Shown: one piece after another, positions 49,833-58,689 of the stretch | Layout: the number at the start of each line of letters is the position of its first letter | How positions within the stretch are numbered: the first letter of the stretch is position 1 | DNA from: Chloroflexota bacterium | GTDB taxonomy: Bacteria; Chloroflexota; Dehalococcoidia; JACPQK01 | Direction of reading: 5' to 3' | Assembly: GCA_016190505.1 (NCBI GenBank) | Contig: JACPQM010000043.1 | Coordinates: 9,188 to 73,187, forward strand | Length of the DNA stretch: 64,000 nucleotides | Position numbers and translations under genes: made by a program | The notes under the pieces: generated by a model | What the model was told of the DNA's origin: nothing | The model's database searches: none | What the model saw: the letters and a program-made list of their open reading frames with translations, nothing else

Positions 49833-50057
49833 GTGTACCAGGACATTGTCAAGAAGTTCGGCATCTACCTGAACCCAAACCAGAAGATCGCGGTGCGCAT
49901 AAACTCCCCCTACTGGATCCCGGAAGGGAGTGATTGGGTATTCTTGACGCCAGAGGTCAATATGACCATGGTAAATATCCGGAAACTGGCTGGTGAGAAG
50001 AAGCTGGTCCCAGACCCCGATAGCATTCAGTGGGGGACAATACCCGTCCGGGACTAA
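49833..50057 (+). CDS. small hypothetical protein (74 aa), low-GC
   Basis: GGAGGAAG SD followed by a GTG start. AT-rich relative to neighbours. No recognisable domain. Confidence 0.35.
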   Translation: MYQDIVKKFGIYLNPNQKIAVRINSPYWIPEGSDWVFLTPEVNMTMVNIRKLAGEKKLVPDPDSIQWGTIPVRD

Positions 50058-50155: not shown

Positions 50156-52417
50156 ATGATGTCGAAGAGTATTCTGTGGTTTCAAGAGGTAGACAAGACC
50201 CACGTGGCCTTAGTGGGGGGGAAGGGTGCCAACCTGGGCGAGATGCTACGGGCTGGCATTCCGGTCCCCCCTGGGTTTATCGTCACTGCCGACAGCTATT
50301 ATTCCTTCCTCGTTTCCTCAGGGCTTGACCGGGAGATTAACGGTCTACTGGGGAGCCTTGATCCCAACGACAACAACCGCCTCCAGCAGGTCTCAGAACA
50401 CATCAAGGAGCAGATGTCCGCCGCGCCCATGCCCCCGGCCATAGCAGCGGAGATCAGGCAGGCATACAAGGACCTGGGCAACGGCCCAGTAGCCGTGCGT
50501 TCTTCAGCCACCGCCGAGGACTTGCCCGAGGCCTCTTTTGCCGGCCAACAGAGCACGTTCCTCAATGTCCAGGGGGATGACAACGTGGTGGCCGCGGTAC
50601 AGGGTTGTTGGGCGTCGCTTTTCCAGGCCCGTGCCATCTTCTACCGGGTGCAGCAAGGCTTTGACCATGGGGTGGTCAAGATCGCTGTGCCGGTGCAGCG
50701 CATGGTACAGTCGCAAGCCGCCGGGGTAATGTTCACGGTGGAGCCGACCTACGGCAACCGGGCGCGGCTGCTAATCGAGGCTGTATACGGTTTGGGCGAG
50801 GCCATCGTCTCCGGCGAGGTAAAGCCCGACATTTATTTTGTGCACAAGGGTAAAGACGGCACTGTCCGCCTGCTCAAGACCGAGGTCTCACCCCAGGAGT
50901 GGCAACTCGTGCGCAATGAACAGGCTACCGACCACGAGTCCTCTAACATCCGGGTGCCTGTACCCGCGGACAAGCGTGAGGCCGCCAAACTCACCGAAGA
51001 GCAGGTGCTGGCCCTGGCCCGCATCGGCCTTCAGGTGGAGTCGCACTACGGGCAGCCCCAGGACATCGAGTGGGCCATGGAGGGCGGAGGCCTGTACATT
51101 GTACAGTCACGGCCCATCACCACGCTGGGTAAAGCTAGTGCCAAGTTCCGCATTGACTTGACCGACGGTGAGAAGCCTATCCTCACCGGCTCCCCGGCAA
51201 GCCCTGGTGCCGGTGCTGGGCTGGTCAAGATCGTGCTGGACCCTTCCGAGTTGGGCAAGGTAGAGAAGGGTGACGTGCTGGTGGCTGAGATGACCTCGCC
51301 GGACTACGTGCCGGCCATGGTGCGGGCCTCGGCCATCGTCACCGACCGTGGTGGCCGGACCTGCCACGCCGCCATCGTGAGCCGCGAGTTGGGTGTACCT
51401 TGCGTGGTGGGCACCGAGCAGGCCACGAGTGTCCTCAGGGAGGGCGCCGAGGTCTCGGTGGACGGCTCTCGGGGCCACATCTACCCGGGCCTGAAGGTAC
51501 GGCCGGAGGAGGCCAAGGTCAGTCCGGCAGCGGGCTTGAAGACCAAGACCCGGGTGTACGTGAATCTGGCTGTCCCAGAGCTGGCCGAGGCGGTCTCCGC
51601 CCAGAACTGCGACGGGGTGGGCCTGCTCCGTGCCGAGTTCATCATCGCCAACCATATTGGTGTGCACCCGCGCTACATGATTGACCATGGGCGCGGCCAA
51701 GAGTGGGCAGATAAACTGGCCCAGGGCCTGGAGGACTTCGCCTGGAACTTCTACCCCCGGCCTGTGGTCTATCGCTTCACGGACTTCAAGACCAACGAGT
51801 ACCGCGGACTCAAGGGAGGCGATGCCTACGAGGGTGAGGAAGAGAACCCCATGCTGGGCTACCGGGGGTGCTCACGCTACATCGCCGAGCGGGATGTATT
51901 CCAGCTTGAGATAGACGCCATCCGCAGTGCGCGACAGCGGTTCGAGAACCTGTGGGTTATGGCCCCCTTCGTGCGCACGGTCAAGGAGATGGCCGATATC
52001 AAAGCCATCCTGGATGAGGAAGGGCTGCGCTCTTCAGACAAGTTCAAGGTGTGGATGATGGTGGAGGTGCCCTCGAACATCATTTTGCTGGACAAGTTCA
52101 TTGACACCGGCATAGACGGCATCTCCATCGGCTCCAACGACCTGACCCAGCTTACCCTGGGCGTGGACCGGGACAACCAGCGGCTGGCCCGCCTCTTCGA
52201 CGAACGTGACGAGGCGGTCATGCTCTCCCTGGAGAAGGCTATCGTTGGCTGCAAGCGGCGGGGTATTACCGCATCCATCTGCGGCCAGGCCCCGTCGGTG
52301 TACCCGGAGCTAACGCGTAAGCTGGTGGAGTGGGGCATCACCTCCGTATCTGTGGCGCCGGACATGATTGATACCACCCGCGAGATCGTGGCCCGAATCG
52401 AGGGTCTGCTGCAATAG
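50156..52417 (+). CDS. ppsA: phosphoenolpyruvate synthase (pyruvate, water dikinase)
   Basis: MMSKSILWFQEVDK…GGKGANLGEM N-terminus. Phospho-His domain (…RGGRTCHAAIVSRELG…). C-terminal PEP-utilising domain. ATG at 50156 after a GGGGGAG motif. Confidence 0.9.
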   Translation: MMSKSILWFQEVDKTHVALVGGKGANLGEMLRAGIPVPPGFIVTADSYYSFLVSSGLDREINGLLGSLDPNDNNRLQQVSEHIKEQMSAAPMPPAIAAEIRQAYKDLGNGPVAVRSSATAEDLPEASFAGQQSTFLNVQGDDNVVAAVQGCWASLFQARAIFYRVQQGFDHGVVKIAVPVQRMVQSQAAGVMFTVEPTYGNRARLLIEAVYGLGEAIVSGEVKPDIYFVHKGKDGTVRLLKTEVSPQEWQLVRNEQATDHESSNIRVPVPADKREAAKLTEEQVLALARIGLQVESHYGQPQDIEWAMEGGGLYIVQSRPITTLGKASAKFRIDLTDGEKPILTGSPASPGAGAGLVKIVLDPSELGKVEKGDVLVAEMTSPDYVPAMVRASAIVTDRGGRTCHAAIVSRELGVPCVVGTEQATSVLREGAEVSVDGSRGHIYPGLKVRPEEAKVSPAAGLKTKTRVYVNLAVPELAEAVSAQNCDGVGLLRAEFIIANHIGVHPRYMIDHGRGQEWADKLAQGLEDFAWNFYPRPVVYRFTDFKTNEYRGLKGGDAYEGEEENPMLGYRGCSRYIAERDVFQLEIDAIRSARQRFENLWVMAPFVRTVKEMADIKAILDEEGLRSSDKFKVWMMVEVPSNIILLDKFIDTGIDGISIGSNDLTQLTLGVDRDNQRLARLFDERDEAVMLSLEKAIVGCKRRGITASICGQAPSVYPELTRKLVEWGITSVSVAPDMIDTTREIVARIEGLLQ

Positions 52418-52446
52418 CGTCAAGCTGATTTCAGGAGGAGTGCCAA

Positions 52447-52521
52447 ATGGCTACACAGACCAAGCCTGCCGCCAAGCCCGCTGCTACCCCGGCCAAGCCC
52501 AAGAAGGGGTGCTGCTGCTAG
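52447..52521 (+). CDS. 24-codon ORF MATQTKPAAKPAATPAKPKKGCCC (Lys/Pro/Ala-rich, C-terminal Cys triplet)
   Basis: AGGAGG 8 nt upstream of the ATG. Stop TAG at 52519-52521. It is immediately upstream of an Fe-S protein gene cluster. Confidence 0.4.
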   Translation: MATQTKPAAKPAATPAKPKKGCCC

Positions 52522-52532
52522 CGGCGAAGCCG

Positions 52533-52844
52533 ATGGCCCAGGGGACGAAGGGGGCCAAGTTGCCCCGTGAGGTAACGTCAGCCGCGGCCGCTACCGAAAT
52601 TGCCCTTGCGTTTGCCAAGAAGCATAGCTTGGTAGCTGTACCGTTGCGCGCCGTGCGGCAAGAAGGTGCGTGGCTCGTCGAGATAAATGTCGGCCTTCTT
52701 CGTGTGCTCAAGGCTACCCTCAGGATAAACGCCCAAACAGGGACCATTCTGGAATACGTTTTGCCGGAGGGAGTTCATTCCGCTTGGCCGTCAGCAACCT
52801 CAGGCCAATGTGGTGGTGCTTGTACTCCAGGCTTAGAGAGGTGA
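52533..52844 (+). CDS. PepSY-like small protein (hypothetical)
   Basis: The pattern …AWLVEINVGLLRVLKATLRINAQTGTILEY resembles a PepSY fold. The start codon is uncertain. Different frame from the 24-codon ORF. Confidence 0.3.
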   Translation: MAQGTKGAKLPREVTSAAAATEIALAFAKKHSLVAVPLRAVRQEGAWLVEINVGLLRVLKATLRINAQTGTILEYVLPEGVHSAWPSATSGQCGGACTPGLER

Positions 52845-52847
52845 ATT

Positions 52848-53684
52848 ATGTGCGTCTGGTGTGAACGTTACTCCGAAGGCGCTGAGCGCTGGTACTTCAA
52901 CCCGGCAAACTACGCTCGCAGGCTGTACAAGATACGCCGCGAGGAGGCGGAGGCCGCTGGCGCCGAGGCCAACCCCCAGCGCGCCGGGGGCATGACCGCC
53001 GGTGGCAGGCCCTTCCAGGAGGCCATGGCCGTCCGTGATGTCGCCACCATGGAGCGCATCAAGAAAGAGGCTGAGGAGCGCGCCTGGGCCACCCACTTCG
53101 GCCAGGTGGTCACCCTGGAGGAGACCCTCAAGATCGTTGACCTCATCTATCCCATTGGCCAAATGACCTGCAACTGCCGCCGCTCCATGCGCGGCCTCCC
53201 CGACGAGGAGAACTTCACCTGCATCGGCATGGGGCCAGGGATGTACAAGTGGGAGCGCTGGCCGGACACCTACCGAGGCGGAGTCGAGTTCCTCACTACG
53301 GCTCAGGCCAAGGACCTGGTCACCCGCCTCCATCACCGGGGCTATGTCCAGGTCATGTACACCTTCGGCACGCCGTACCTGGGGGGCATCTGCAACTGCG
53401 ACTACCCGGACTGCGGCGGCTTCCGGACTACGGTGGACCTGGGCATCAAGTGCGTGTGGAAAGGGCACTACGTGGCCCAGGTGGACCCTAACAAGTGCAA
53501 CGGCTGCGGGCTGTGCGTATCTCGGTGCCAGTTCAAGGCCCTGTCCTTCAACCCCAGCTACAACATGGCCTACGTGGACCAGATGCAGTGCTTCGGCTGT
53601 GGCCAGTGCCAGATACCGTGCAAACCTAACGCCATCTCCCTGCTGGACCGCTCCAAGATTCCCGCTCTGGCCACCGTATGGTGA
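52848..53684 (+). CDS. Cys-rich protein with C-terminal 2x[4Fe-4S] ferredoxin-type motifs
   Basis: AGAGAGGTGA SD. N-terminus MCVWCERY… with additional Cys clusters (TCNCRR, GICNCDYPDCGG). The C-terminus carries CNGCGLCVSRC and CFGCGQCQIPC. Confidence 0.7.
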   Translation: MCVWCERYSEGAERWYFNPANYARRLYKIRREEAEAAGAEANPQRAGGMTAGGRPFQEAMAVRDVATMERIKKEAEERAWATHFGQVVTLEETLKIVDLIYPIGQMTCNCRRSMRGLPDEENFTCIGMGPGMYKWERWPDTYRGGVEFLTTAQAKDLVTRLHHRGYVQVMYTFGTPYLGGICNCDYPDCGGFRTTVDLGIKCVWKGHYVAQVDPNKCNGCGLCVSRCQFKALSFNPSYNMAYVDQMQCFGCGQCQIPCKPNAISLLDRSKIPALATVW

Positions 53685-53779
53685 AGGGACTTTCCTTCCC
53701 CCTCGACGGGGGAAGGTTAGGATGGGGGTGAGGCTCGCTTGTCTTTGGTTGAACGAGGCTAACTGTGGGAGGAAACGCT

Positions 53780-54031
53780 GTGCTACCTGACGTGACTGTT
53801 GATGCTGCGAAGTGTACCGACCCGCTGAGTTGCCGGGCCTGCCTGCTGGTCTGCCCCAACCGGGTGCTGGGGCTGGGGACCCGGGTGGCCCCGCGCAAGT
53901 TCGCCGAGACCGACCCCAAGGACTTCGAGGTCCAGATGGTCCGCTACCTGTCGTGCACCCTGTGCCGCCAGTGCGAGGCGGCCTGCCCCACCGGCGCCTT
54001 GAGCATAGACGAAGGGAGGGTGCCCGCATGA
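53780..54031 (+). CDS. 2[4Fe-4S] ferredoxin
   Basis: GGGAGG SD 7 nt before the GTG. Cys arrays CTDPLSCRACLLVC and CTLCRQCEAAC. Confidence 0.7.
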   Translation: MLPDVTVDAAKCTDPLSCRACLLVCPNRVLGLGTRVAPRKFAETDPKDFEVQMVRYLSCTLCRQCEAACPTGALSIDEGRVPA

Positions 54032-54618
54032 GGCCCGCTTCTCGCCGCAGCCCGTTGCCCCCACCGGCGGCCCCGTTCACCTTGGAGGAGCCAGGCAAGC
54101 CGCTCCTGTTCGACGCCGACCGGGGCCTGCCCGACGAGGTCACCGCCCGCTACAGCGTTAAGACGTTGGTGGCGTCGCTAACGCCGGACCTGCCAGCCGC
54201 TCGCAAGGCGTGCGCCGACTTTGGCCGGGGTGCCATGGGGCTCACCATAGAGCTGGCCGACAGCAAGTACCAGGACCGGGCCGGGGAGATGATCGAGAAG
54301 GTCTACCTCAAGACGGGCATCTCGTTCCCCCACCGCCTCCAGCGCTACGCCGAGCTATTCCTCATTGCCGTCCGGCCCCTGGACCGCTGGAACGTGACCT
54401 GCGCTACGCCGGACAAGCTGACCATCGAGGTCTCCGGCTGCGCCGTGTTCCAGGCGATGAAAGTGAAGGGCCTGTCCTACAAGGAACTGCCCTGTTTGGA
54501 GCTATGCCTGGGAGGCTTCCGCGTGGCCGCCGACAAGACGGGCGACAAGGTGCGCCTGGACGTGCCCAAGACCCTGCCCAGAGACGGGCGCTGCCAGTTC
54601 GTGCTCGCAGTGGCGTAG
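54028..54618 (+). CDS. hypothetical protein (196 aa), possibly ATC-hydrolase-like
   Basis: The ATG overlaps the ferredoxin stop (ATGA) and is preceded by a GGGAGGG SD. No confident domain call. Confidence 0.5.
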   Translation: MRPASRRSPLPPPAAPFTLEEPGKPLLFDADRGLPDEVTARYSVKTLVASLTPDLPAARKACADFGRGAMGLTIELADSKYQDRAGEMIEKVYLKTGISFPHRLQRYAELFLIAVRPLDRWNVTCATPDKLTIEVSGCAVFQAMKVKGLSYKELPCLELCLGGFRVAADKTGDKVRLDVPKTLPRDGRCQFVLAVA

Positions 54619-54756: not shown

Positions 54757-55173
54757 TTAGCCGCGGCGGTCTGCCAGTCTCTCGAATATCCCCAGACTAC
54801 ATATCTGAACTGCGGCGAACTCCAGTAGATCTCGGCGCGACTTGGCCCTTGATTTCAGGTCGATGTCCCTAAGTAGGTCAACGACTTCTTCTTCGTCACA
54901 TTCAACCTGGTCGAAATACTGGATGATCTCGTCTTTCGACATGGCCTTGAGTTCATCTAGGGATTTCGCGATGCGCCTGTCCACTTCCTTCACAATCTGG
55001 GCGGCGATCTTGCTCTTGGTGTCTTTGGTAGTCGCCTTCACACCCAACGAACTAGCCGTCTGGGCTAACTCTTGGGTGTTGATTCTCTTGCTGCTATCAA
55101 GCGCAGCAATTGCACCTTCTCTTCCAACCATGGCAACGAGAGTCTTGACATCTTCTTTTGAAATGCGTGTCAT
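54757..55173 (-). CDS. hypothetical small protein, downstream partner of ParA-like ATPase
   Basis: It lies 17 nt after the ParA stop in the same AT-rich patch. Charged, Lys-rich, 138 aa. Confidence 0.55.
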   Translation of the reverse strand: MTRISKEDVKTLVAMVGREGAIAALDSSKRINTQELAQTASSLGVKATTKDTKSKIAAQIVKEVDRRIAKSLDELKAMSKDEIIQYFDQVECDEEEVVDLLRDIDLKSRAKSRRDLLEFAAVQICSLGIFERLADRRG

Positions 55174-55189
55174 ACAAGAACCCCCGTGC

Positions 55190-56080
55190 TTAGAGCTTGC
55201 TTAGCAATTCGTTGATCAACTGGCGAAACTGCTCCGCCTGCTTTTCGGCATTCACGCCAGAAATGTCGTACACAGAGCACCCTTGCTCAGCAGCCCACCG
55301 GATGCCATCCCCTTCCGTAATGTACGTGTCAAAAATGCCGGTTGTCCTCTTAAGTCGGTTATAAGTGATCGTCTCGGAGTACTTCAGCCCGCCGCCCCAC
55401 TCACGGCACATCATGCCGATGGCCCCCAGGAAAACCGTGTCTTTGTAACCTGGTAGGAGTCCCAAGAGGGACCCGACCGCCTTTACATCCGCATCTACGT
55501 TCTTGATAGCCTCTATGGTTGACGGCACGCCTATGGCGGATTGGGCATCCAGTTTCACGGGAGATACGCAGTAGTCCGAGGCGTAGATTACGGCCTTTTC
55601 CAAATCATAGAGGTCTGGATGACTGTCGATGAGAACAAAGTCGTATGGTCTGTTTGCGCCAACCAAACGTTCCAGGCAGTCTCGAATGAGGGTAAGATGG
55701 CGCATGATCATTCTGTTATTGTCACGCAGATTGTTCGTCGGGGGCATTTTGTCTACCGAGATTGAGTTGAGCCTCGGATCAGCCGGAACAAGATCTATCT
55801 TGTCTTTCTTGGCGGGAAGCACCGTTACCGGTAGGACGTCCTGTCCACTGTACAACGCTCTATAAGCGTGGTAGAGGGTTACATGCGGGACATCACCCAA
55901 CCGGAAGTTCTCGAGCATTTCGGGCCGCAAGCGACAGGTGAGCCCACCCCTTTGGTAATCGGTGTCAATCACCAACACATTGACGTCGTGAAACAGTCGG
56001 AGGCCCACAGCAATATGATATACAGTCGTCGTCTTACCGACGCCTCCCTTTTCACTAATGAAGCTTATTATCTTGGCCAC
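55190..56080 (-). CDS. ParA/MinD/Soj-family ATPase (deviant Walker A)
   Basis: KGGVGKTT deviant Walker A. The GTG start is preceded by an AGGAGGGTGAT SD. Low-GC region. Confidence 0.85.
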   Translation of the reverse strand: MAKIISFISEKGGVGKTTTVYHIAVGLRLFHDVNVLVIDTDYQRGGLTCRLRPEMLENFRLGDVPHVTLYHAYRALYSGQDVLPVTVLPAKKDKIDLVPADPRLNSISVDKMPPTNNLRDNNRMIMRHLTLIRDCLERLVGANRPYDFVLIDSHPDLYDLEKAVIYASDYCVSPVKLDAQSAIGVPSTIEAIKNVDADVKAVGSLLGLLPGYKDTVFLGAIGMMCREWGGGLKYSETITYNRLKRTTGIFDTYITEGDGIRWAAEQGCSVYDISGVNAEKQAEQFRQLINELLSKL

Positions 56081-56163
56081 ATCACCCTCCTTTCACGCCA
56101 TCCGTGACAACCTCAACGCGCCAACTGTGGTGCAACGTGGAATAGTCTGCCGCTGGCCTTCGC

Positions 56164-56186
56164 AACGCCATTAGCCTAACGCCATT
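56164..56186. promoter_or_regulatory. direct repeats AACGCCATT x2 (spaced 14 nt), ~90 nt upstream of the parA-like start; candidate partition site or operator
   Basis: Seen directly. Additional CAACG half-repeats nearby. Confidence 0.3.
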
Positions 56187-56236
56187 GCGGGCAGGTGTCA
56201 ATGCTCTGCTGTGCAGAAGCTGAGTAGTCGTTCAGC

Positions 56237-56297
56237 CCCAGGCTCACGCGCAGGGCCTGGTTCACCTCGCGCATCTTCTCGGCGCTCAAGGCGTCGC
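56237..56297 (-). pseudogene. orphan 3'-terminal fragment of a mazF-like gene (encodes …ALSAEKMREVNQALRVSLG)
   Basis: >80% nucleotide similarity to the 3' end of the second mazF copy (57027-57090). It sits directly downstream of the first mazF stop. Confidence 0.45.
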
Positions 56298-56615
56298 CTA
56301 CTCCTCCATCCCCAGCGCGTAGTGTATGGCGGCGTCTACAGCCTCGAGCTTCTTGGGATCTAGCATGCCGATACGAGTGTCAAGCCTGTTCTTGTTGATA
56401 GTGATGATGGTGTCTAGGTTGGCTACTGAGGGCCGCGATAGACCGTCCTCCCTCCCAAGCCGCACCTCGGCGGGAATATCTCGGATGCGTGTTGTCACCT
56501 GAGTCACCATGATCAGGCTGCGGACCGCGTAAGCGTCGTCTCGAGAGAGAAGCAACACAGGCCGACGCCCGCTGGGCGGCGCCAGGTTAGCCCACCACAG
56601 TTCGCCGCGCCTCAC
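56298..56615 (-). CDS. MazF/PemK-family endoribonuclease toxin
   Basis: RGELWWANL…GRRPVLLLSRD… PemK fold. 4-nt overlap with the upstream antitoxin. Confidence 0.8.
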   Translation of the reverse strand: MRRGELWWANLAPPSGRRPVLLLSRDDAYAVRSLIMVTQVTTRIRDIPAEVRLGREDGLSRPSVANLDTIITINKNRLDTRIGMLDPKKLEAVDAAIHYALGMEE

Positions 56616-56884
56616 TGTTCCGCCCCCTCATCCCAGGGGTTCTCGGCCATGACGTCCGCGAGCGCGGATTCCGCAAAGGCGATCTCTTCGGCAGTCTCGG
56701 GGTACTGCTGGTAGCCTCGGATGTACCGCTCGATCTCTTCGCGCTCGCGCTGCCGGCGGAAGAAAGCCTCGATGGCGCGCCGGAGGAACTGGCTACGGGT
56801 CTCCCCACCTGCCGCGCGTTCCCTCTCAATGCTATCCAACAGGTCTCTGGGCAAACTGAAGGTGATCTTGGCTGTGTCTTGCAT
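56612..56884 (-). CDS. ribbon-helix-helix (CopG/MazE-like) antitoxin
   Basis: N-terminal KITFSLPRDLLDSIER is a RHH motif. Translationally coupled to mazF. Confidence 0.75.
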   Translation of the reverse strand: MQDTAKITFSLPRDLLDSIERERAAGGETRSQFLRRAIEAFFRRQREREEIERYIRGYQQYPETAEEIAFAESALADVMAENPWDEGAEQ

Positions 56885-56900
56885 ACCTATCTCCTACTGC

Positions 56901-56920
56901 GTTCATACCGAAGTATGAAC
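56901..56920. promoter_or_regulatory. palindrome gttcatac-cgaa-gtatgaac upstream of the first RHH-mazF operon (candidate antitoxin operator)
   Basis: 8-bp arms. A related tcatac-N5-gtatga is found upstream of the second pair. Confidence 0.4.
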
Positions 56921-57014
56921 CAGGCCTCGCCATTCGTCAATGCCTGCGCGGTCGGGTTGTCCCGACAAGTCGGGACGACCTACGGCTTGAGACGCTTTCC
57001 TTTGGCAGAGGGAT

Positions 57015-57359
57015 CTACTCCTCCAGCCCCAGGCTCAGGTGCAGCGCCTGATCCACCTCGCGCATCTTTTCGGCGCTCAATGCGCCTGCCTGGTTACCAA
57101 GGCGCGACTGGTCTACGGTCCTGAGTTGCTCGCACAGGACCGTGCCGTCCAGTCCCAGGCCGCTTTCCAGGGCCGTGAACGGTACGTGGAATGGGTGGGT
57201 ACGGCGGCGCGCCTGCGATGTCAATGCGGCTACGATGGTGGTGGGGCTGAACTGGTTGCCCGCGTCGTTCTGAACGATGACCACAGGGCGGCGCCCGGCC
57301 TGCTCGGAGCCAGTGGCGGCGCCAAGCTCCAGCCAGTAGACCTCGCCGCGCCTAACCAT
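57015..57359 (-). CDS. MazF/PemK-family toxin (second copy)
   Basis: The internal ATG (MVRRGEVYWLEL…GRRPVVIVQND…) overlaps the antitoxin stop. The longer TTG-initiated ORF to 57404 is less likely. Confidence 0.75.
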   Translation of the reverse strand: MVRRGEVYWLELGAATGSEQAGRRPVVIVQNDAGNQFSPTTIVAALTSQARRRTHPFHVPFTALESGLGLDGTVLCEQLRTVDQSRLGNQAGALSAEKMREVDQALHLSLGLEE

Positions 57360-57624
57360 TGGCAGGCTCGTCCCATCGGATGTACTTCCGCATCGTCGCG
57401 ACAACCAGCGGCCAGGCCTCCTCCGCCTCCCGCCGGTTCTCCTCGGCCATCTCGCGGTAGCCTTCGGCCATCGCTGCCTCGATGCGCTCCCTCTCTGCCC
57501 TCTTGAGCAGATCGGCGATCACCTCGCTGCGACTGATGGACCGTTCTTTGGCCAGGCGGTCTGCGAATTGGAGCAGCGCCTTGGGCAGGCTAATGGTCAC
57601 CTTGGCCACTCGTTCCTTTGCCAT
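57352..57624 (-). CDS. ribbon-helix-helix antitoxin (second copy)
   Basis: KVTISLPKALLQFADRLAKERSISRSEVI is a RHH motif. Confidence 0.75.
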   Translation of the reverse strand: MAKERVAKVTISLPKALLQFADRLAKERSISRSEVIADLLKRAERERIEAAMAEGYREMAEENRREAEEAWPLVVATMRKYIRWDEPANG

Positions 57625-57742: not shown

Positions 57743-58366
57743 GTGCTCGTGGACATGCACACGCATACCCGGTTTGGGTCCAACTGCTCATACATGGAGC
57801 CGGTGGGCCTGGTCCGGTCCGCGCAAACGGCCGGCCTGGGCGCGGTGTGCATCACTGAGCATGACCTGCTCTGGAGCGCAAGTGATCTCGAAGCCCTGGG
57901 CCGCGAGCAGGGCTTCCTCTGCCTGGGTGGCATGGAGGTAGCCACGGACCTTGGCTCCATCCTGGTCTATGGCTATCGTGGTCCCCTGTCGCAACGGGCG
58001 GAGGAGCTGCGCCGTCAGGTACAGGCCAACGGTGGCTACATGGTGGCGGCCCACCCCTTCCGGCGTGACCCCCAGTGGGCTGTTTGGGACGTTGCCGCTG
58101 AGGTGGGGCGCCCGTTGTTCCGCCTGGTGGATGCTCTGGAGGTGTTCAACGGCCTCTCCCCTCGTCGGGAGGCGGAATTCGGGTTGGAGGTAGCTGGTAG
58201 GACCGGCTTGCCGGTGCTTGGGGGCAGCGACAGCCACGCGCCCCATACCGTGGGCCGCTGCATCACCCGCTTTGAGCGGCCCATTGCCTCGGAGGCGGAC
58301 ATGGTGGCCGAGCTCCGGGCGGGGCGGTTCCGGGCGGAGCACCGGGTGCTGGGGCTGAGCACGTGA
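57743..58366 (+). CDS. PHP-domain metal-dependent phosphoesterase
   Basis: VDMHTHTRFGS…CITEHD His motifs of the PHP family. GTG start. Confidence 0.75.
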   Translation: MLVDMHTHTRFGSNCSYMEPVGLVRSAQTAGLGAVCITEHDLLWSASDLEALGREQGFLCLGGMEVATDLGSILVYGYRGPLSQRAEELRRQVQANGGYMVAAHPFRRDPQWAVWDVAAEVGRPLFRLVDALEVFNGLSPRREAEFGLEVAGRTGLPVLGGSDSHAPHTVGRCITRFERPIASEADMVAELRAGRFRAEHRVLGLST

Positions 58367-58446
58367 CCCGAGGCCAGATTGGACGGATTGGACTGATCGG
58401 ACGGATCCGACCTAGCGGGACTCGGTGGGGGTGGTATCATAGGCAT

Positions 58447-58689
58447 ATGCATGAGCCTTTCCTCCCCGACTGCGGCCATTGCACATGGTTCCTCAAGCCT
58501 TTTGACTCACAGAGCCCCCTGGGCGATTGGGGATTCTGCTCAGCCCGGGCCGGGGGGGCGCTGCCGGAGCGGGACGTGCTCCACCGCCTGGAGGTCGCTG
58601 CCCGGGGTGGGGACTTCGCCCCAGTGCTGAGCTTCCCAGGCCTCTTCCCTGAGGGGGACGATGGCTGTGAAGCCTTCTGCCCACTCTGA
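58447..58689 (+). CDS. possible small Cys-containing protein (hypothetical)
   Basis: ATG within the ORF 58363..58689. MHEPFLPDCGHCTWF…GFC… Weak support. It may overlap the true dgt start. Confidence 0.2.
   Translation: MHEPFLPDCGHCTWFLKPFDSQSPLGDWGFCSARAGGALPERDVLHRLEVAARGGDFAPVLSFPGLFPEGDDGCEAFCPL

What the first reader, a model, noticed from the sequence alone, without database searches (positions are those of the whole stretch)
52447..54618. Tiny ORF ending in Cys-Cys-Cys with a strong SD, heading a cluster of Fe-S proteins
The ORF MATQTKPAAKPAATPAKPKKGCCC (24 aa) has a perfectly spaced AGGAGG and lies 30 nt downstream of ppsA. It is followed by a possible PepSY-like small ORF, a 278-aa Cys-rich protein with two ferredoxin-type CxxCxxCxxxC motifs plus extra N-terminal Cys clusters, a 2[4Fe-4S] ferredoxin, and a coupled 196-aa unknown protein; the last two share an ATGA start/stop overlap. 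The Lys/Pro/Ala-rich body resembles histone-H1-like tails. The terminal Cys triplet could be a metal-binding or lipidation site, or the substrate of a maturation system. The longer alternative ORF 52368-52844 overlaps it in another frame, so only one reading can be real.
Basis: seen in the sequence. Interest (0 to 1): 0.6.

Follow-up and report, generated by a model that had tools for sequence, protein, structure and literature searches.

The report
Conserved 24-codon gene ending Cys-Cys-Cys
A 24-codon gene just after ppsA is real and under strong purifying selection in four related uncultured Chloroflexota sequences, and it encodes an unannotated lysine/proline-rich peptide ending in Gly-Cys-Cys-Cys whose function is unknown and which is not a fixed partner of the neighbouring iron-sulfur genes.

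Summary
The ORF at 52447-52521 (MATQTKPAAKPAATPAKPKKGCCC) has AGGAGG 8 nt upstream and starts 29 nt after the ppsA stop.

I found three homologues (L081, L082, L083). All keep the start, the TAG stop, all Lys and Pro, and GCCC. Of 25 single-step changes, 19 are synonymous (neutral expectation 27%, P=5e-7). Variable columns by codon position are 3/3/15. One indel is a whole codon. pN/pS is 0.06-0.15, about the level of ppsA (0.13). Flanks are 30-42% identical against 83% in the ORF. It is a selected coding gene.

The "competing" long ORF is only an upstream extension of the PepSY-like gene, which starts at 52533. That extension is not conserved.

The link to the Fe-S genes is weak. The cassette fes278-fdx83-unk196 occurs in more than 80 loci without the peptide, including a 73%-identical relative. 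Within the peptide clade the gene after the micro-ORF varies.

No protein database, Pfam, NCBIfam or Rfam match exists for the peptide.

Best reading, inferred only: a trans-acting disordered polycationic microprotein whose tri-thiolate tip binds a soft metal or a metal centre.

Main rival: a cysteine-sensing leader peptide.

The parts
52433..52440 (+). Shine-Dalgarno sequence AGGAGGAG of the micro-ORF, with an 8-nt spacer from AGGAGG to the ATG.
   Evidence: Read directly. A purine-rich SD is kept in the homologues: AGGAGGAG in L081, GGGAGG in L083, GGGAGAGAGG in L082.
52447..52521 (+). Micro-ORF of 24 codons plus TAG, encoding MATQTKPAAKPAATPAKPKKGCCC. It is a conserved, selected coding gene.
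   Evidence: Three homologues were found. Synonymous changes number 19 of 25 (P=5e-7), and pN/pS is 0.06-0.15. Variable columns by codon position are 3/3/15 (P=4e-4). Identity is 83% in the ORF against 42% and 30% in the flanks.
52510..52518 (+). Three consecutive Cys codons (TGC TGC TGC) directly before the stop. The Cys residues are invariant in all four sequences, while TGC/TGT usage varies.
52533..52844 (+). PepSY-like small ORF of 103 aa, starting 11 nt after the micro-ORF stop. It is present in L081 and L082 and absent in L083.
   Evidence: Only 2 homologues exist in 5.8e9 proteins. pN/pS is 0.22-0.31. The AF2 model has one helix and four strands, with weak Foldseek matches to PepSY-domain proteins 4exr, 2gu3 and 5boi. 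The Pfam score is below threshold.
50156..52417 (+). ppsA (PEP synthase), the upstream neighbour. Its stop lies 29-34 nt before the micro-ORF ATG in the window, L083 and L081.
   Evidence: Pfam PPDK_N, PEP-utilizers and PEP-utilizers_C; synteny. The micro-ORF is in a different phase relative to ppsA in the window and in L083 (sequences).
52848..53684 (+). fes278: an uncharacterised N-terminal Cys-bearing alpha/beta domain followed by a C-terminal 2x[4Fe-4S] ferredoxin domain. It is the first gene of a widely conserved cassette that usually lacks the micro-ORF.
   Evidence: The AF2 model has pLDDT 85. Only the ferredoxin domain matches the PDB.
53780..54031 (+). fdx83, a 2x[4Fe-4S] ferredoxin with a GTG start after GGGAGG.
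54028..54618 (+). unk196, a conserved protein of unknown family. It is translationally coupled to fdx83 through the ATGA overlap, and in some organisms it is fused to an fdx83-like domain.
54757..57624 (-). Inserted island carrying orf138, a ParA-like ATPase and two PemK/MazF modules. It separates the cassette from its usual neighbour, the PHP gene. It is context only, not part of the micro-ORF feature.
57743..58366 (+). PHP-family predicted metal-dependent phosphoesterase. It lies directly next to the cassette in other genomes and is displaced here.

Best explanation
The 24-codon ORF is a genuine, independently translated gene for a microprotein that acts through the peptide itself.

**Shown**
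- The ORF has its own strong ribosome-binding site.
- Its amino-acid sequence is under purifying selection about as strong as that on ppsA.
- All five Lys, all five Pro and the C-terminal Gly-Cys-Cys-Cys are invariant in four diverged sequences.
- It persists whether the next gene is a PepSY-like ORF, a PepSY-like plus PaREP1 pair, or a 260-nt spacer.
- It is confined to a narrow clade. The Fe-S cassette does not need it.

**Inferred mechanism**
- The Lys/Pro/Ala body (net charge +5, no hydrophobic core) is a disordered, extended polycationic arm. It would dock on an acidic or polyanionic surface of a protein, nucleic acid or polyphosphate.
- The arm presents the flexible tri-thiolate tip. The tip would bind a soft metal ion (Zn, Cu(I), Ni, Co, Fe) or cap a metal centre of a partner.
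- This is the logic shown experimentally for the basic-patch-plus-CCC segment of eukaryotic Inhibitor-3 on PP1.
- The partner is unknown.

I put the probability that it is a real selected coding gene at about 0.9. I put the metal-binding or metal-capping mechanism at about 0.35. The single confidence value of 0.5 covers the statement as a whole, that is, a trans-acting functional peptide.
For: **Conservation as coding sequence**
- Homologues are MATQTTKPAAKPTATPAKPKKGCCC (L081), MATQVTKPAAKPGTTPAKPKKGCCC (L082) and MATPTTKPAAKPATTPAKPKKGCCC (L083).
- Eleven codon columns vary only synonymously, and four vary in amino acid.
- Variable nucleotide columns by codon position are 3/3/15, P=4e-4.
- 19 of 25 single-step changes are synonymous against 27% expected, P=5e-7.
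- pN/pS is 0.06-0.15, against ppsA 0.13, fes278 0.12-0.15 and PepSY-like 0.22-0.31.
- The only length difference is one whole codon.
- Identity is 83% in the ORF, 42% upstream and 30% downstream.

**Expression signals and independence**
- An SD is kept in all four sequences. L082 has a TTGAAC-17-TAGAAT promoter match just upstream.
- The phase relative to ppsA differs between the window and L083, so the ORF is not a ppsA tail.
- GC3 of the ORF, counted by hand, is 19/24, like the window's genes.

**No RNA explanation**
- The region folds no better than shuffles (z=+1.07). Rfam finds nothing.

**Mechanistic precedent**
- In Inhibitor-3, the disordered ...GRRSSKCCC segment docks through basic patches. 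Its CCC binds Zn2+ (KD about 3 uM) and engages the PP1 active-site metals (PMC10066265).
Against: - Only four sequences are known, all from one narrow clade (fes278 90-93% identical among the three loci that include it), so the phylogenetic depth is shallow.
- There are no expression, proteomic or metal-binding data.
- No partner is identified, and nothing in the neighbourhood is constant except ppsA upstream (3 of 4 loci).
- Three Cys in 24 residues is too few for a metallothionein-like cluster.
- Three adjacent Cys codons right before a stop are also what a cysteine-sensing leader peptide looks like. In the mycobacterial examples, non-Cys residues are sometimes conserved too.
- The Inhibitor-3 analogy is functional only. 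There is no homology, and it is a eukaryotic protein.
Confidence: 0.5

Rival explanations
1. Cysteine-sensing leader peptide. Ribosomes pause at the three Cys codons when Cys-tRNA is scarce. Because the stop is only 11-25 nt from the next start codon, pausing would change translation of the downstream genes. It could do this by blocking termination-reinitiation or by occluding the next ribosome-binding site. This would match expression of Cys-rich Fe-S proteins to cysteine supply.
For: - Three consecutive Cys codons close a short, strongly initiated ORF.
- The next start lies 11 nt (window), 16 nt (L081) and 25 nt (L082) after the stop, and the PepSY-like ORF has little or no SD of its own in the window and L081.
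- Mycobacterial polycysteine short ORFs are proven Cys-responsive attenuators, and two or three consecutive Cys codons suffice (10.1101/834739).
- Non-Cys residues are conserved in some of those ORFs.
- The downstream proteins are Cys-rich.
Against: - The whole peptide, not only the Cys codons, is under strong amino-acid-level selection.
- The gene after the ORF is not constant. In L083 a 260-nt unrelated spacer follows, yet the ORF is intact.
- There is no significant or conserved RNA structure linking the Cys codons to a downstream SD (z=+1.07; the flanks do not align).
- The downstream genes are not cysteine or sulfur metabolism genes.
- The ORF is SD-led, not leaderless.
Confidence: 0.2
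2. Redox-crosslinkable polyanion binder, like protamines or the KPAA-repeat protein AlgP. The KPAAKP-type body binds DNA, RNA or polyphosphate. The terminal cysteines form intermolecular disulfides or metal bridges, turning a monovalent peptide into a multivalent condenser under oxidising conditions.
For: - The body is made of KPAA-type units (KPAA-KPAAT-PAKPKK) and carries a net charge of +5.
- KPAA repeats define the histone H1-like protein AlgP, which associates with polyphosphate granules (PMC9239181, title and abstract listed).
- A PhaF-type disordered KPAA region binds RNA (PMC12818456, title and abstract listed).
- The Lys and Pro residues are invariant.
Against: - There are only about three imperfect units, against dozens in AlgP (from my own knowledge of AlgP).
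- There is no test of nucleic-acid or polyphosphate binding.
- No sequence match to any such protein was found.
- The cytoplasm of an anaerobe is reducing, so disulfide formation would be exceptional.
Confidence: 0.12
3. Precursor of a ribosomally made, post-translationally modified peptide (RiPP), or another substrate of a maturation system that modifies the C-terminal cysteines. The Fe-S proteins would act as the maturases.
For: The ORF is short with a conserved Cys-rich C-terminus and lies next to uncharacterised Fe-S proteins.
Against: - No radical-SAM, YcaO, lanthipeptide, MNIO/DUF692 or peptidase/transporter gene appears among the neighbours: cmk, plsC, ispH, ppsA, fes278, fdx83, unk196, ParA, MazF modules, PHP, HD, dnaG, rpoD.
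- fes278 has no radical-SAM match.
- The cassette is present in more than 80 loci without any such peptide.
- The peptide is kept next to different genes.
Confidence: 0.06
4. C-terminal lipid or membrane anchor. A polybasic stretch followed by acylated or prenylated cysteines would tether the peptide to the membrane, as in Ras and Rab tails.
For: KPKKGCCC resembles the polybasic-plus-Cys tails of eukaryotic small GTPases. This rests on my own knowledge and no tool result.
Against: No bacterial machinery for C-terminal Cys prenylation or S-acylation is known (my own knowledge). None is encoded nearby. The peptide carries no cargo domain.
Confidence: 0.04
5. Not a gene. The ORF would be a chance open frame in a conserved non-coding element, such as the ppsA 3' UTR, a small RNA or a protein-binding site.
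For: The ORF is very short, is not called by gene finders in L081 or L082, and has no protein database match.
Against: - Substitutions concentrate at third codon positions (15 of 21 variable columns).
- 19 of 25 changes are synonymous.
- The indel is one codon.
- The start, the stop and the SD are kept in all four sequences.
- There is no RNA structure signal.
Confidence: 0.03

Closest known systems
Polycysteine short-ORF attenuators of mycobacteria (Ms5788A and related; Canestrari et al., bioRxiv 10.1101/834739)
   Same: Both are very short ORFs ending in a run of consecutive Cys codons, placed 5' of other genes in the same orientation. The Cys run is the most conserved part, and some non-Cys residues are conserved as well.
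   Different: - The mycobacterial ORFs are leaderless and sit upstream of cysteine or sulfur metabolism operons. They act through an RNA duplex that hides the next SD.
- Here the ORF is SD-led and lies after ppsA.
- The next gene varies, or is 260 nt away.
- No such RNA duplex is detectable or conserved.
- The whole peptide is under amino-acid-level selection.
CCC motif of Inhibitor-3 (PPP1R11), a disordered PP1 regulator (PMC10066265)
   Same: A disordered basic patch (…GRRSSK in I3, …AKPKKG here) is immediately followed by Cys-Cys-Cys. In I3 the basic residues dock on an acidic groove and the CCC binds Zn2+ and caps the active-site metals.
   Different: There is no sequence homology. I3 is a 126-residue eukaryotic protein with RVxF and SILK motifs, and its CCC is internal. 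Here the peptide is 24 residues, bacterial, has the CCC at the very C-terminus, and has no known partner.
KPAA-repeat histone H1-like proteins (AlgP, PhaF C-terminal regions of Pseudomonas; PMC9239181, PMC12818456)
   Same: Both have a Lys-Pro-Ala-Ala type low-complexity polycationic sequence, and such regions bind polyanions.
   Different: Those are long tandem arrays attached to folded domains and have no terminal cysteines. Here there are about three imperfect units and a Cys triplet.
Metallothioneins with CCC motifs (for example fungal-IV MT of Yarrowia, PMC13107397; listed)
   Same: A CCC triplet is used as a thiolate metal ligand set.
   Different: Metallothioneins carry many Cys in several CxC/CC/CCC motifs that form metal-thiolate clusters. 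This peptide has a single triplet (12.5% Cys).

Membership tests
Polycysteine short-ORF cysteine attenuators (mycobacterial type) | Short ORF with at least two consecutive Cys codons. | tested here: met
   There are three consecutive Cys codons at 52510-52518, invariant in four sequences.
Polycysteine short-ORF cysteine attenuators (mycobacterial type) | Leaderless mRNA whose first codon is the transcript 5' end. | tested here: not met
   The ORF is preceded by AGGAGGAG and lies 29 nt after the ppsA stop. In L082 the promoter-like site ends 21 nt before the ATG.
Polycysteine short-ORF cysteine attenuators (mycobacterial type) | RNA duplex between the ORF and the downstream SD that a paused ribosome disrupts. 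| tested here: not met
   The fold of 52415-52560 is no more stable than shuffles (z=+1.07). The downstream sequence is not alignable among the four loci (30% identity).
Polycysteine short-ORF cysteine attenuators (mycobacterial type) | The ORF heads an operon of cysteine or sulfur metabolism genes. | tested here: not met
   The downstream genes are a PepSY-like ORF, Fe-S proteins and an unknown protein. In L081 and L082 they are PepSY-like plus PaREP1, and in L083 a spacer follows.
Polycysteine short-ORF cysteine attenuators (mycobacterial type) | Downstream expression responds to cysteine supply. | not testable with these tools
   This needs reporter or proteomic experiments.
RiPP precursor peptide | Genomic association with a maturase (radical SAM, YcaO, LanB/C/M, MNIO and similar). 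| tested here: not met
   Pfam and NCBIfam annotation of the neighbours in the window and relatives shows none.
Metallothionein | High Cys content with several CxC/CC motifs forming a metal-thiolate cluster. | tested here: not met
   The peptide has 3 Cys in 24 residues, in one motif, and no family match.
PepSY domain (PF03413), for the neighbouring 103-aa ORF | Score at or above the Pfam gathering threshold. | tested here: not met
   The score is 14.3 bits against a cut-off of 24, E=0.054.
PepSY domain (PF03413), for the neighbouring 103-aa ORF | One helix packed on a four-stranded antiparallel sheet. | tested here: inconclusive
   The AF2 model (pLDDT 69) has H17-30 and four strands. The best Foldseek matches include PepSY-type proteins 4exr, 2gu3 and 5boi, but E is only 0.04-0.5.
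2x[4Fe-4S] bacterial-type ferredoxin domain (fdx83 and the C-terminus of fes278) | Two CxxCxxCxxxC(P) motifs and Fer4-family HMM matches above threshold. | tested here: met
   PF00037, PF12838 and PF12837 are above their cut-offs.
KPAA-repeat H1-like proteins (AlgP type) | Long tandem array of KPAA units. | tested here: not met
   There are only about three imperfect units in 24 residues, and no sequence match in 5.8e9 proteins.

The most novel reading that the evidence does not exclude
The peptide is the founding member of a bacterial class of "metal-capping" microproteins. A disordered basic arm would dock on a metalloenzyme, and the terminal Cys-Cys-Cys would reversibly ligate its active-site or assembly-intermediate metal.

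One candidate partner is the PHP-family phosphoesterase that is a conserved neighbour of the Fe-S cassette in two phyla. Another is the uncharacterised Cys-rich N-domain of fes278.

The peptide would then act as an inhibitor or chaperone, as Inhibitor-3 does for PP1 in eukaryotes.
Probability: 0.1. Interest if true: 0.8.

Novelty: new variant of a known kind. Interest (0 to 1): 0.5.

Why it matters
Genes this short are missed by gene finders. The gene calls on record for two of the homologous contigs omit it, and a search of 5.8 billion predicted proteins found no match.

Few unannotated micro-ORFs can be shown to be selected coding genes from sequence alone. This one can, and its architecture (polycationic proline-rich arm plus an invariant terminal Cys triplet) is simple enough to test directly with a synthetic peptide.

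If the tri-thiolate tip binds a metal or caps a metalloenzyme, it would be a minimal bacterial counterpart of a mechanism so far shown only for a eukaryotic phosphatase regulator. If it is instead a cysteine sensor, it would extend polycysteine attenuation beyond mycobacteria and beyond leaderless transcripts.

Its known distribution is narrow (four sequences), which limits its general importance for now.

The analysis also delimits a widespread uncharacterised redox cassette: fes278-fdx83-unk196, often with a PHP protein. That cassette deserves study in its own right.

Tried and rejected
1. **Fe-S cassette relatives.** I looked for the peptide next to 80 genome loci carrying the cassette. No frame ending in CC or CCC and no Lys/Pro/Ala-rich short frame lies near the cassette. 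Six ppsA-fes278 intergenic regions read in all frames contain nothing similar. The closest relatives outside the clade also lack it: L131/L132 (73% identical) in sequence, and L133-L135 (70-71%) by gene context and the scan only.
2. **Protein database search with the peptide.** The tool refuses queries under 40 aa. A tandem of two variants gave no hit at E<=10.
3. **Exact look-up of the PepSY-like protein.** It is not on record.
4. **DNA pattern PKKGCCC-stop.** In metagenomes it gave 45 stretches, of which one is a true homologue (L083). The rest are chance hits or off-frame pieces of unrelated conserved genes. Viral contigs gave 3 chance hits.
5. **RNA explanations.** Rfam found nothing and there is no fold signal.
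7. **ppsA C-terminal extension.** Rejected, because the phase relative to ppsA differs between loci.
8. **Long ORF 52368-52844 as the true gene.** Rejected.
Full report
**1. What is in the window**

The region reads as the first-stage reader described.
- ppsA (Pfam PPDK_N, PEP-utilizers, PEP-utilizers_C) ends with TAG at 52415-52417.
- AGGAGGAG lies at 52433-52440.
- ATG at 52447 opens a 24-codon frame, MATQTKPAAKPAATPAKPKKGCCC, closed by TAG at 52519-52521.
- Eleven nucleotides later, ATG 52533 opens a 103-aa ORF with a sub-threshold PepSY match (E=0.054).
- Next comes a 278-aa protein (52848-53684, "fes278"). Its C-terminal 70 residues are a two-cluster ferredoxin domain. Its N-terminal 200 residues match no family.
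- Then come an 83-aa two-cluster ferredoxin (GTG 53780-54031, "fdx83") and a 196-aa protein with no family (54028-54618, "unk196"). The last two overlap by ATGA.

The motif three-Cys-codons-then-TAR occurs once in the window against 0.04 expected. It is the only stop-to-stop frame ending in CCC.

**2. Is the micro-ORF conserved?**

The Fe-S genes gave the first handle.
- A genome scan with fes278 returned 80 loci from Dehalococcoidia, Desulfosporosinus, Abyssobacteria and others.
- All of them carry fes278-fdx83-unk196 in that order, wherever the contig reaches far enough.
- None has a short frame ending in Cys-Cys near the cassette, or a Lys/Pro/Ala-rich short frame anywhere.
- Six Dehalococcoidia loci have ppsA directly upstream of fes278. 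Their 200-275-nt spacers contain nothing like the peptide.
- All these relatives are at most 69-71% identical in fes278, so they do not test conservation among close relatives.

Closer relatives came from three routes.
- **L081.** The nearest fes278 homologue in the protein collection (P0001, 93%) lies on a 1.7-kb contig. It reads [end of ppsA]-SD-MATQTTKPAAKPTATPAKPKKGCCC-PepSY-like-PaREP1-fes278.
- **L082.** The PepSY-like protein has only two homologues among 5.8 billion proteins. The second lies on a 595-nt groundwater contig. It reads promoter-like TTGAAC-17-TAGAAT, SD, MATQVTKPAAKPGTTPAKPKKGCCC, PepSY-like, start of a PaREP1-like gene.
- **L083.** A metagenome scan for DNA encoding PKKGCCC-stop gave 45 stretches. 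One is a true homologue, from an 88.6-kb contig. It is syntenic with the window: ispH, glmS, a 74-aa ORF, ppsA, SD, MATPTTKPAAKPATTPAKPKKGCCC, a 260-nt spacer, then fes278-fdx83-unk196. It has no PepSY-like gene.

**3. The substitutions are those of a coding sequence in this frame**

| Measure | Result |
|---|---|
| Codon columns varying only synonymously | 11 |
| Codon columns changing the amino acid | 4 (positions 4, 5, 13, 14) |
| Length differences | one whole codon |
| Variable nucleotide columns by codon position | 3, 3, 15 (P=4e-4) |
| Synonymous share of single-step changes from consensus | 19 of 25; 27% expected under neutrality (P=5e-7) |
| Pairwise pS | 0.29-0.65 |
| Pairwise pN | 0.02-0.09 |

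- The resulting pN/pS of 0.06-0.15 compares with 0.13 for ppsA, 0.12-0.15 for fes278 and 0.22-0.31 for the PepSY-like ORF.
- Mean pairwise identity is 83% inside the ORF, 42% in the 30 columns upstream and 30% downstream.
- The start codon, the TAG stop, a purine-rich SD, all Lys, all Pro and Gly-Cys-Cys-Cys are invariant.
- The region has no RNA-structure signal (z=+1.07) and no Rfam match.

The micro-ORF is a selected coding gene.

**4. The alternative long ORF**

ORF 52368-52844 is the PepSY-like frame run upstream to a TTG inside ppsA.
- The conserved start of the PepSY-like protein is ATG 52533 (MAQGTKGA...; L081 reads MAERAKGA...).
- In L082 that frame is closed 18 nt upstream of its start.
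- In L081 it has no start codon upstream.
- Its phase relative to the micro-ORF differs between the window and L081.

The two genes are adjacent, not competing.

**5. What the micro-ORF is associated with**

It is not tied to the Fe-S cassette.
- The cassette is widespread without it, including in L131/L132 (fes278 73% identical). That locus reads glmS-ppsA-410 nt-fes278 with no such ORF.
- Inside the peptide clade, the sequence between the micro-ORF and fes278 differs from locus to locus. It is the PepSY-like ORF in the window, PepSY-like plus PaREP1 in L081, and a spacer with nested perfect palindromes in L083.
- ppsA is immediately upstream in three of four loci, at 29-34 nt. The phase differs between loci, so the ORF is not a ppsA extension.
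- L082 has a promoter-like site instead of ppsA within the 65 nt available.
- PaREP1 belongs to the HEPN-T clade (PMC3710099). PepSY-like plus PaREP1 may therefore be an accessory, conflict-type pair that entered this spacer.

The micro-ORF is the only constant element. Its distribution, as far as these searches reach, is one narrow clade of uncultured Chloroflexota. Among the three loci that include fes278, that protein is 90-93% identical.

**6. The Fe-S cassette itself**

- fes278 gives a confident model (pLDDT 85). Only its ferredoxin domain matches solved structures.
- The N-domain carries invariant Cys at positions 5, 108, 110, 125, 182, 184 and 189, with Cys2 nearly invariant.
- unk196 has no Pfam or PDB relative. 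In some organisms it is fused to an fdx83-like domain. This fits the ATGA coupling.
- A PHP-family phosphoesterase lies directly after unk196 in at least nine Dehalococcoidia loci. It lies directly before fes278 in at least eight Desulfosporosinus loci.
- In the window, the PHP gene (57743-58366) is separated from the cassette by an inserted island. The island carries ParA and two PemK/MazF modules.
- The surrounding genes are chromosomal housekeeping genes: cmk, plsC, ispH, ppsA, then an HD phosphohydrolase, dnaG and rpoD.

**7. How it most likely works**

Shown: the amino-acid sequence itself is selected, and it is kept next to different neighbours. This argues that the product, not only the act of translating it, matters.

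The peptide has no hydrophobic segment. It has five Lys, five Pro and no acidic residue, so it should be an extended, disordered polycation ending in three thiols.

Inferred: the basic arm docks on an acidic or polyanionic surface, and the flexible tri-thiolate tip binds a soft metal or caps a metal centre.

The only experimentally dissected precedent I found is eukaryotic Inhibitor-3. Its basic patches position a CCC motif over the PP1 active-site metals, and the motif binds Zn2+ with a KD of about 3 uM (PMC10066265). This is an analogy of mechanism, not homology.

I put about 0.9 on "real selected gene" and about 0.35 on this mechanism.

**8. Rivals**

- **Cysteine-sensing leader peptide.** This is the main rival, modelled on the mycobacterial polycysteine ORFs (10.1101/834739).
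  - For: the Cys run at the end of the ORF, the very short distance to the next start in three loci, and the Cys-rich downstream proteins.
  - Against: the variable downstream partner, the 260-nt spacer in L083, the absence of any conserved RNA duplex, an SD-led rather than leaderless start, and no link to cysteine metabolism.
- **Protamine- or AlgP-like polyanion binder with redox crosslinking.** This is compatible with the KPAA-type body but is untested.
- **RiPP precursor.** Unlikely, because no maturase is nearby and the cassette does not co-occur with the peptide.
- **Lipid anchoring.** It lacks any known bacterial machinery.
- **Non-coding element.** Excluded by the substitution pattern.

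**9. Novelty and verdict**

The peptide matches no Pfam or NCBIfam family. It matches no protein among 5.8 billion. The gene calls on record for two of the homologous contigs omit it.

It is a new microprotein family with an unusual but simple architecture. As a kind, a conserved bacterial small ORF with a Cys-based function, it falls within what is known.

The finding is real and moderately interesting. Its claimed tie to the Fe-S cluster is not supported, and its function remains inferred.

Noticed in passing
window 54757-57624 (- strand): This stretch is an inserted island. It carries a 138-aa ORF, a ParA-like ATPase (55190-56080), PemK/MazF (56298-56615) with an RHH partner (56612-56884), and a second PemK/MazF (57015-57404) with a DUF6364 partner (57352-57624). 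It splits unk196 from the PHP gene, which follows unk196 directly in other Dehalococcoidia.
   Followed up: partly
window 57743-58366 and 58363-58689; loci L001, L003, L015, L016, L022, L025, L026, L035, L039, L053, L054, L059, L061-L063, L073, L074: A PHP-family phosphoesterase is a recurrent direct neighbour of the fes278-fdx83-unk196 cassette in two phyla, often with a 108-aa ORF of no family. It lies downstream in Dehalococcoidia and upstream in Desulfosporosinus. This suggests a four- or five-gene functional unit of unknown function.
   Followed up: partly
proteins P0123, P0127, P0169 (homologues of window 54028-54618): In some organisms the unk196 family is fused to an N-terminal two-cluster ferredoxin domain like fdx83. 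This is a gene-fusion argument that fdx83 and unk196 work together.
   Followed up: yes
L006 3912, L007 3204, L011 3291, L013 3882, L027 3882, L131 3882, L132 645: A conserved non-coding motif lies about 100 nt upstream of fes278 in Dehalococcoidia that have ppsA next to the cassette. It reads TTTACGTC-N5-ACAAAGACGTTAC followed by TAGRTGTATACTTTCCCTGATACAC, and is probably a promoter or operator. It is absent from the window.
   Followed up: partly
L083 3047-3151: The spacer between the micro-ORF and fes278 holds nested perfect inverted repeats, TGTCATTCTGAG/CTCAGAATGACA and CGAAGAATCTCGT/ACGAGATTCTTCG. It looks like a miniature mobile element. There is no copy in the window.
   Followed up: partly
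L081 421-789; L082 from about 442 (gene): In two relatives the PepSY-like ORF is followed, with a 1-nt gap, by a PaREP1-family gene (HEPN-T clade). PaREP1 is described as an archaeal family, but here it sits in bacterial Chloroflexota contigs. The window has lost it, and the C-terminus of its PepSY-like ORF is unrelated to that of the relatives.
   Followed up: partly
window 49833-50057: A 74-aa ORF between ispH and ppsA has no family match. It is conserved in L083 (84% identity, pN/pS 0.155), so it is probably a real small gene.
   Followed up: partly
L086, L095, L099, L101, L117, L118, L121, L128; and L088, L090, L103, L106, L110, L116, L123: Two unrelated sets of metagenomic contigs each share a near-identical longer frame ending in PKKGCCC-stop (…LKPPRKPKKGCCC and …LEPLPPKKGCCC). 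They are probably off-frame readings of conserved genes. I did not examine them.
   Followed up: no
L023, L024, L041: Some Chloroflexota loci carry tandem duplicates of fes278, plus a more distant paralogue (32-34% identity) on the opposite strand upstream.
   Followed up: no
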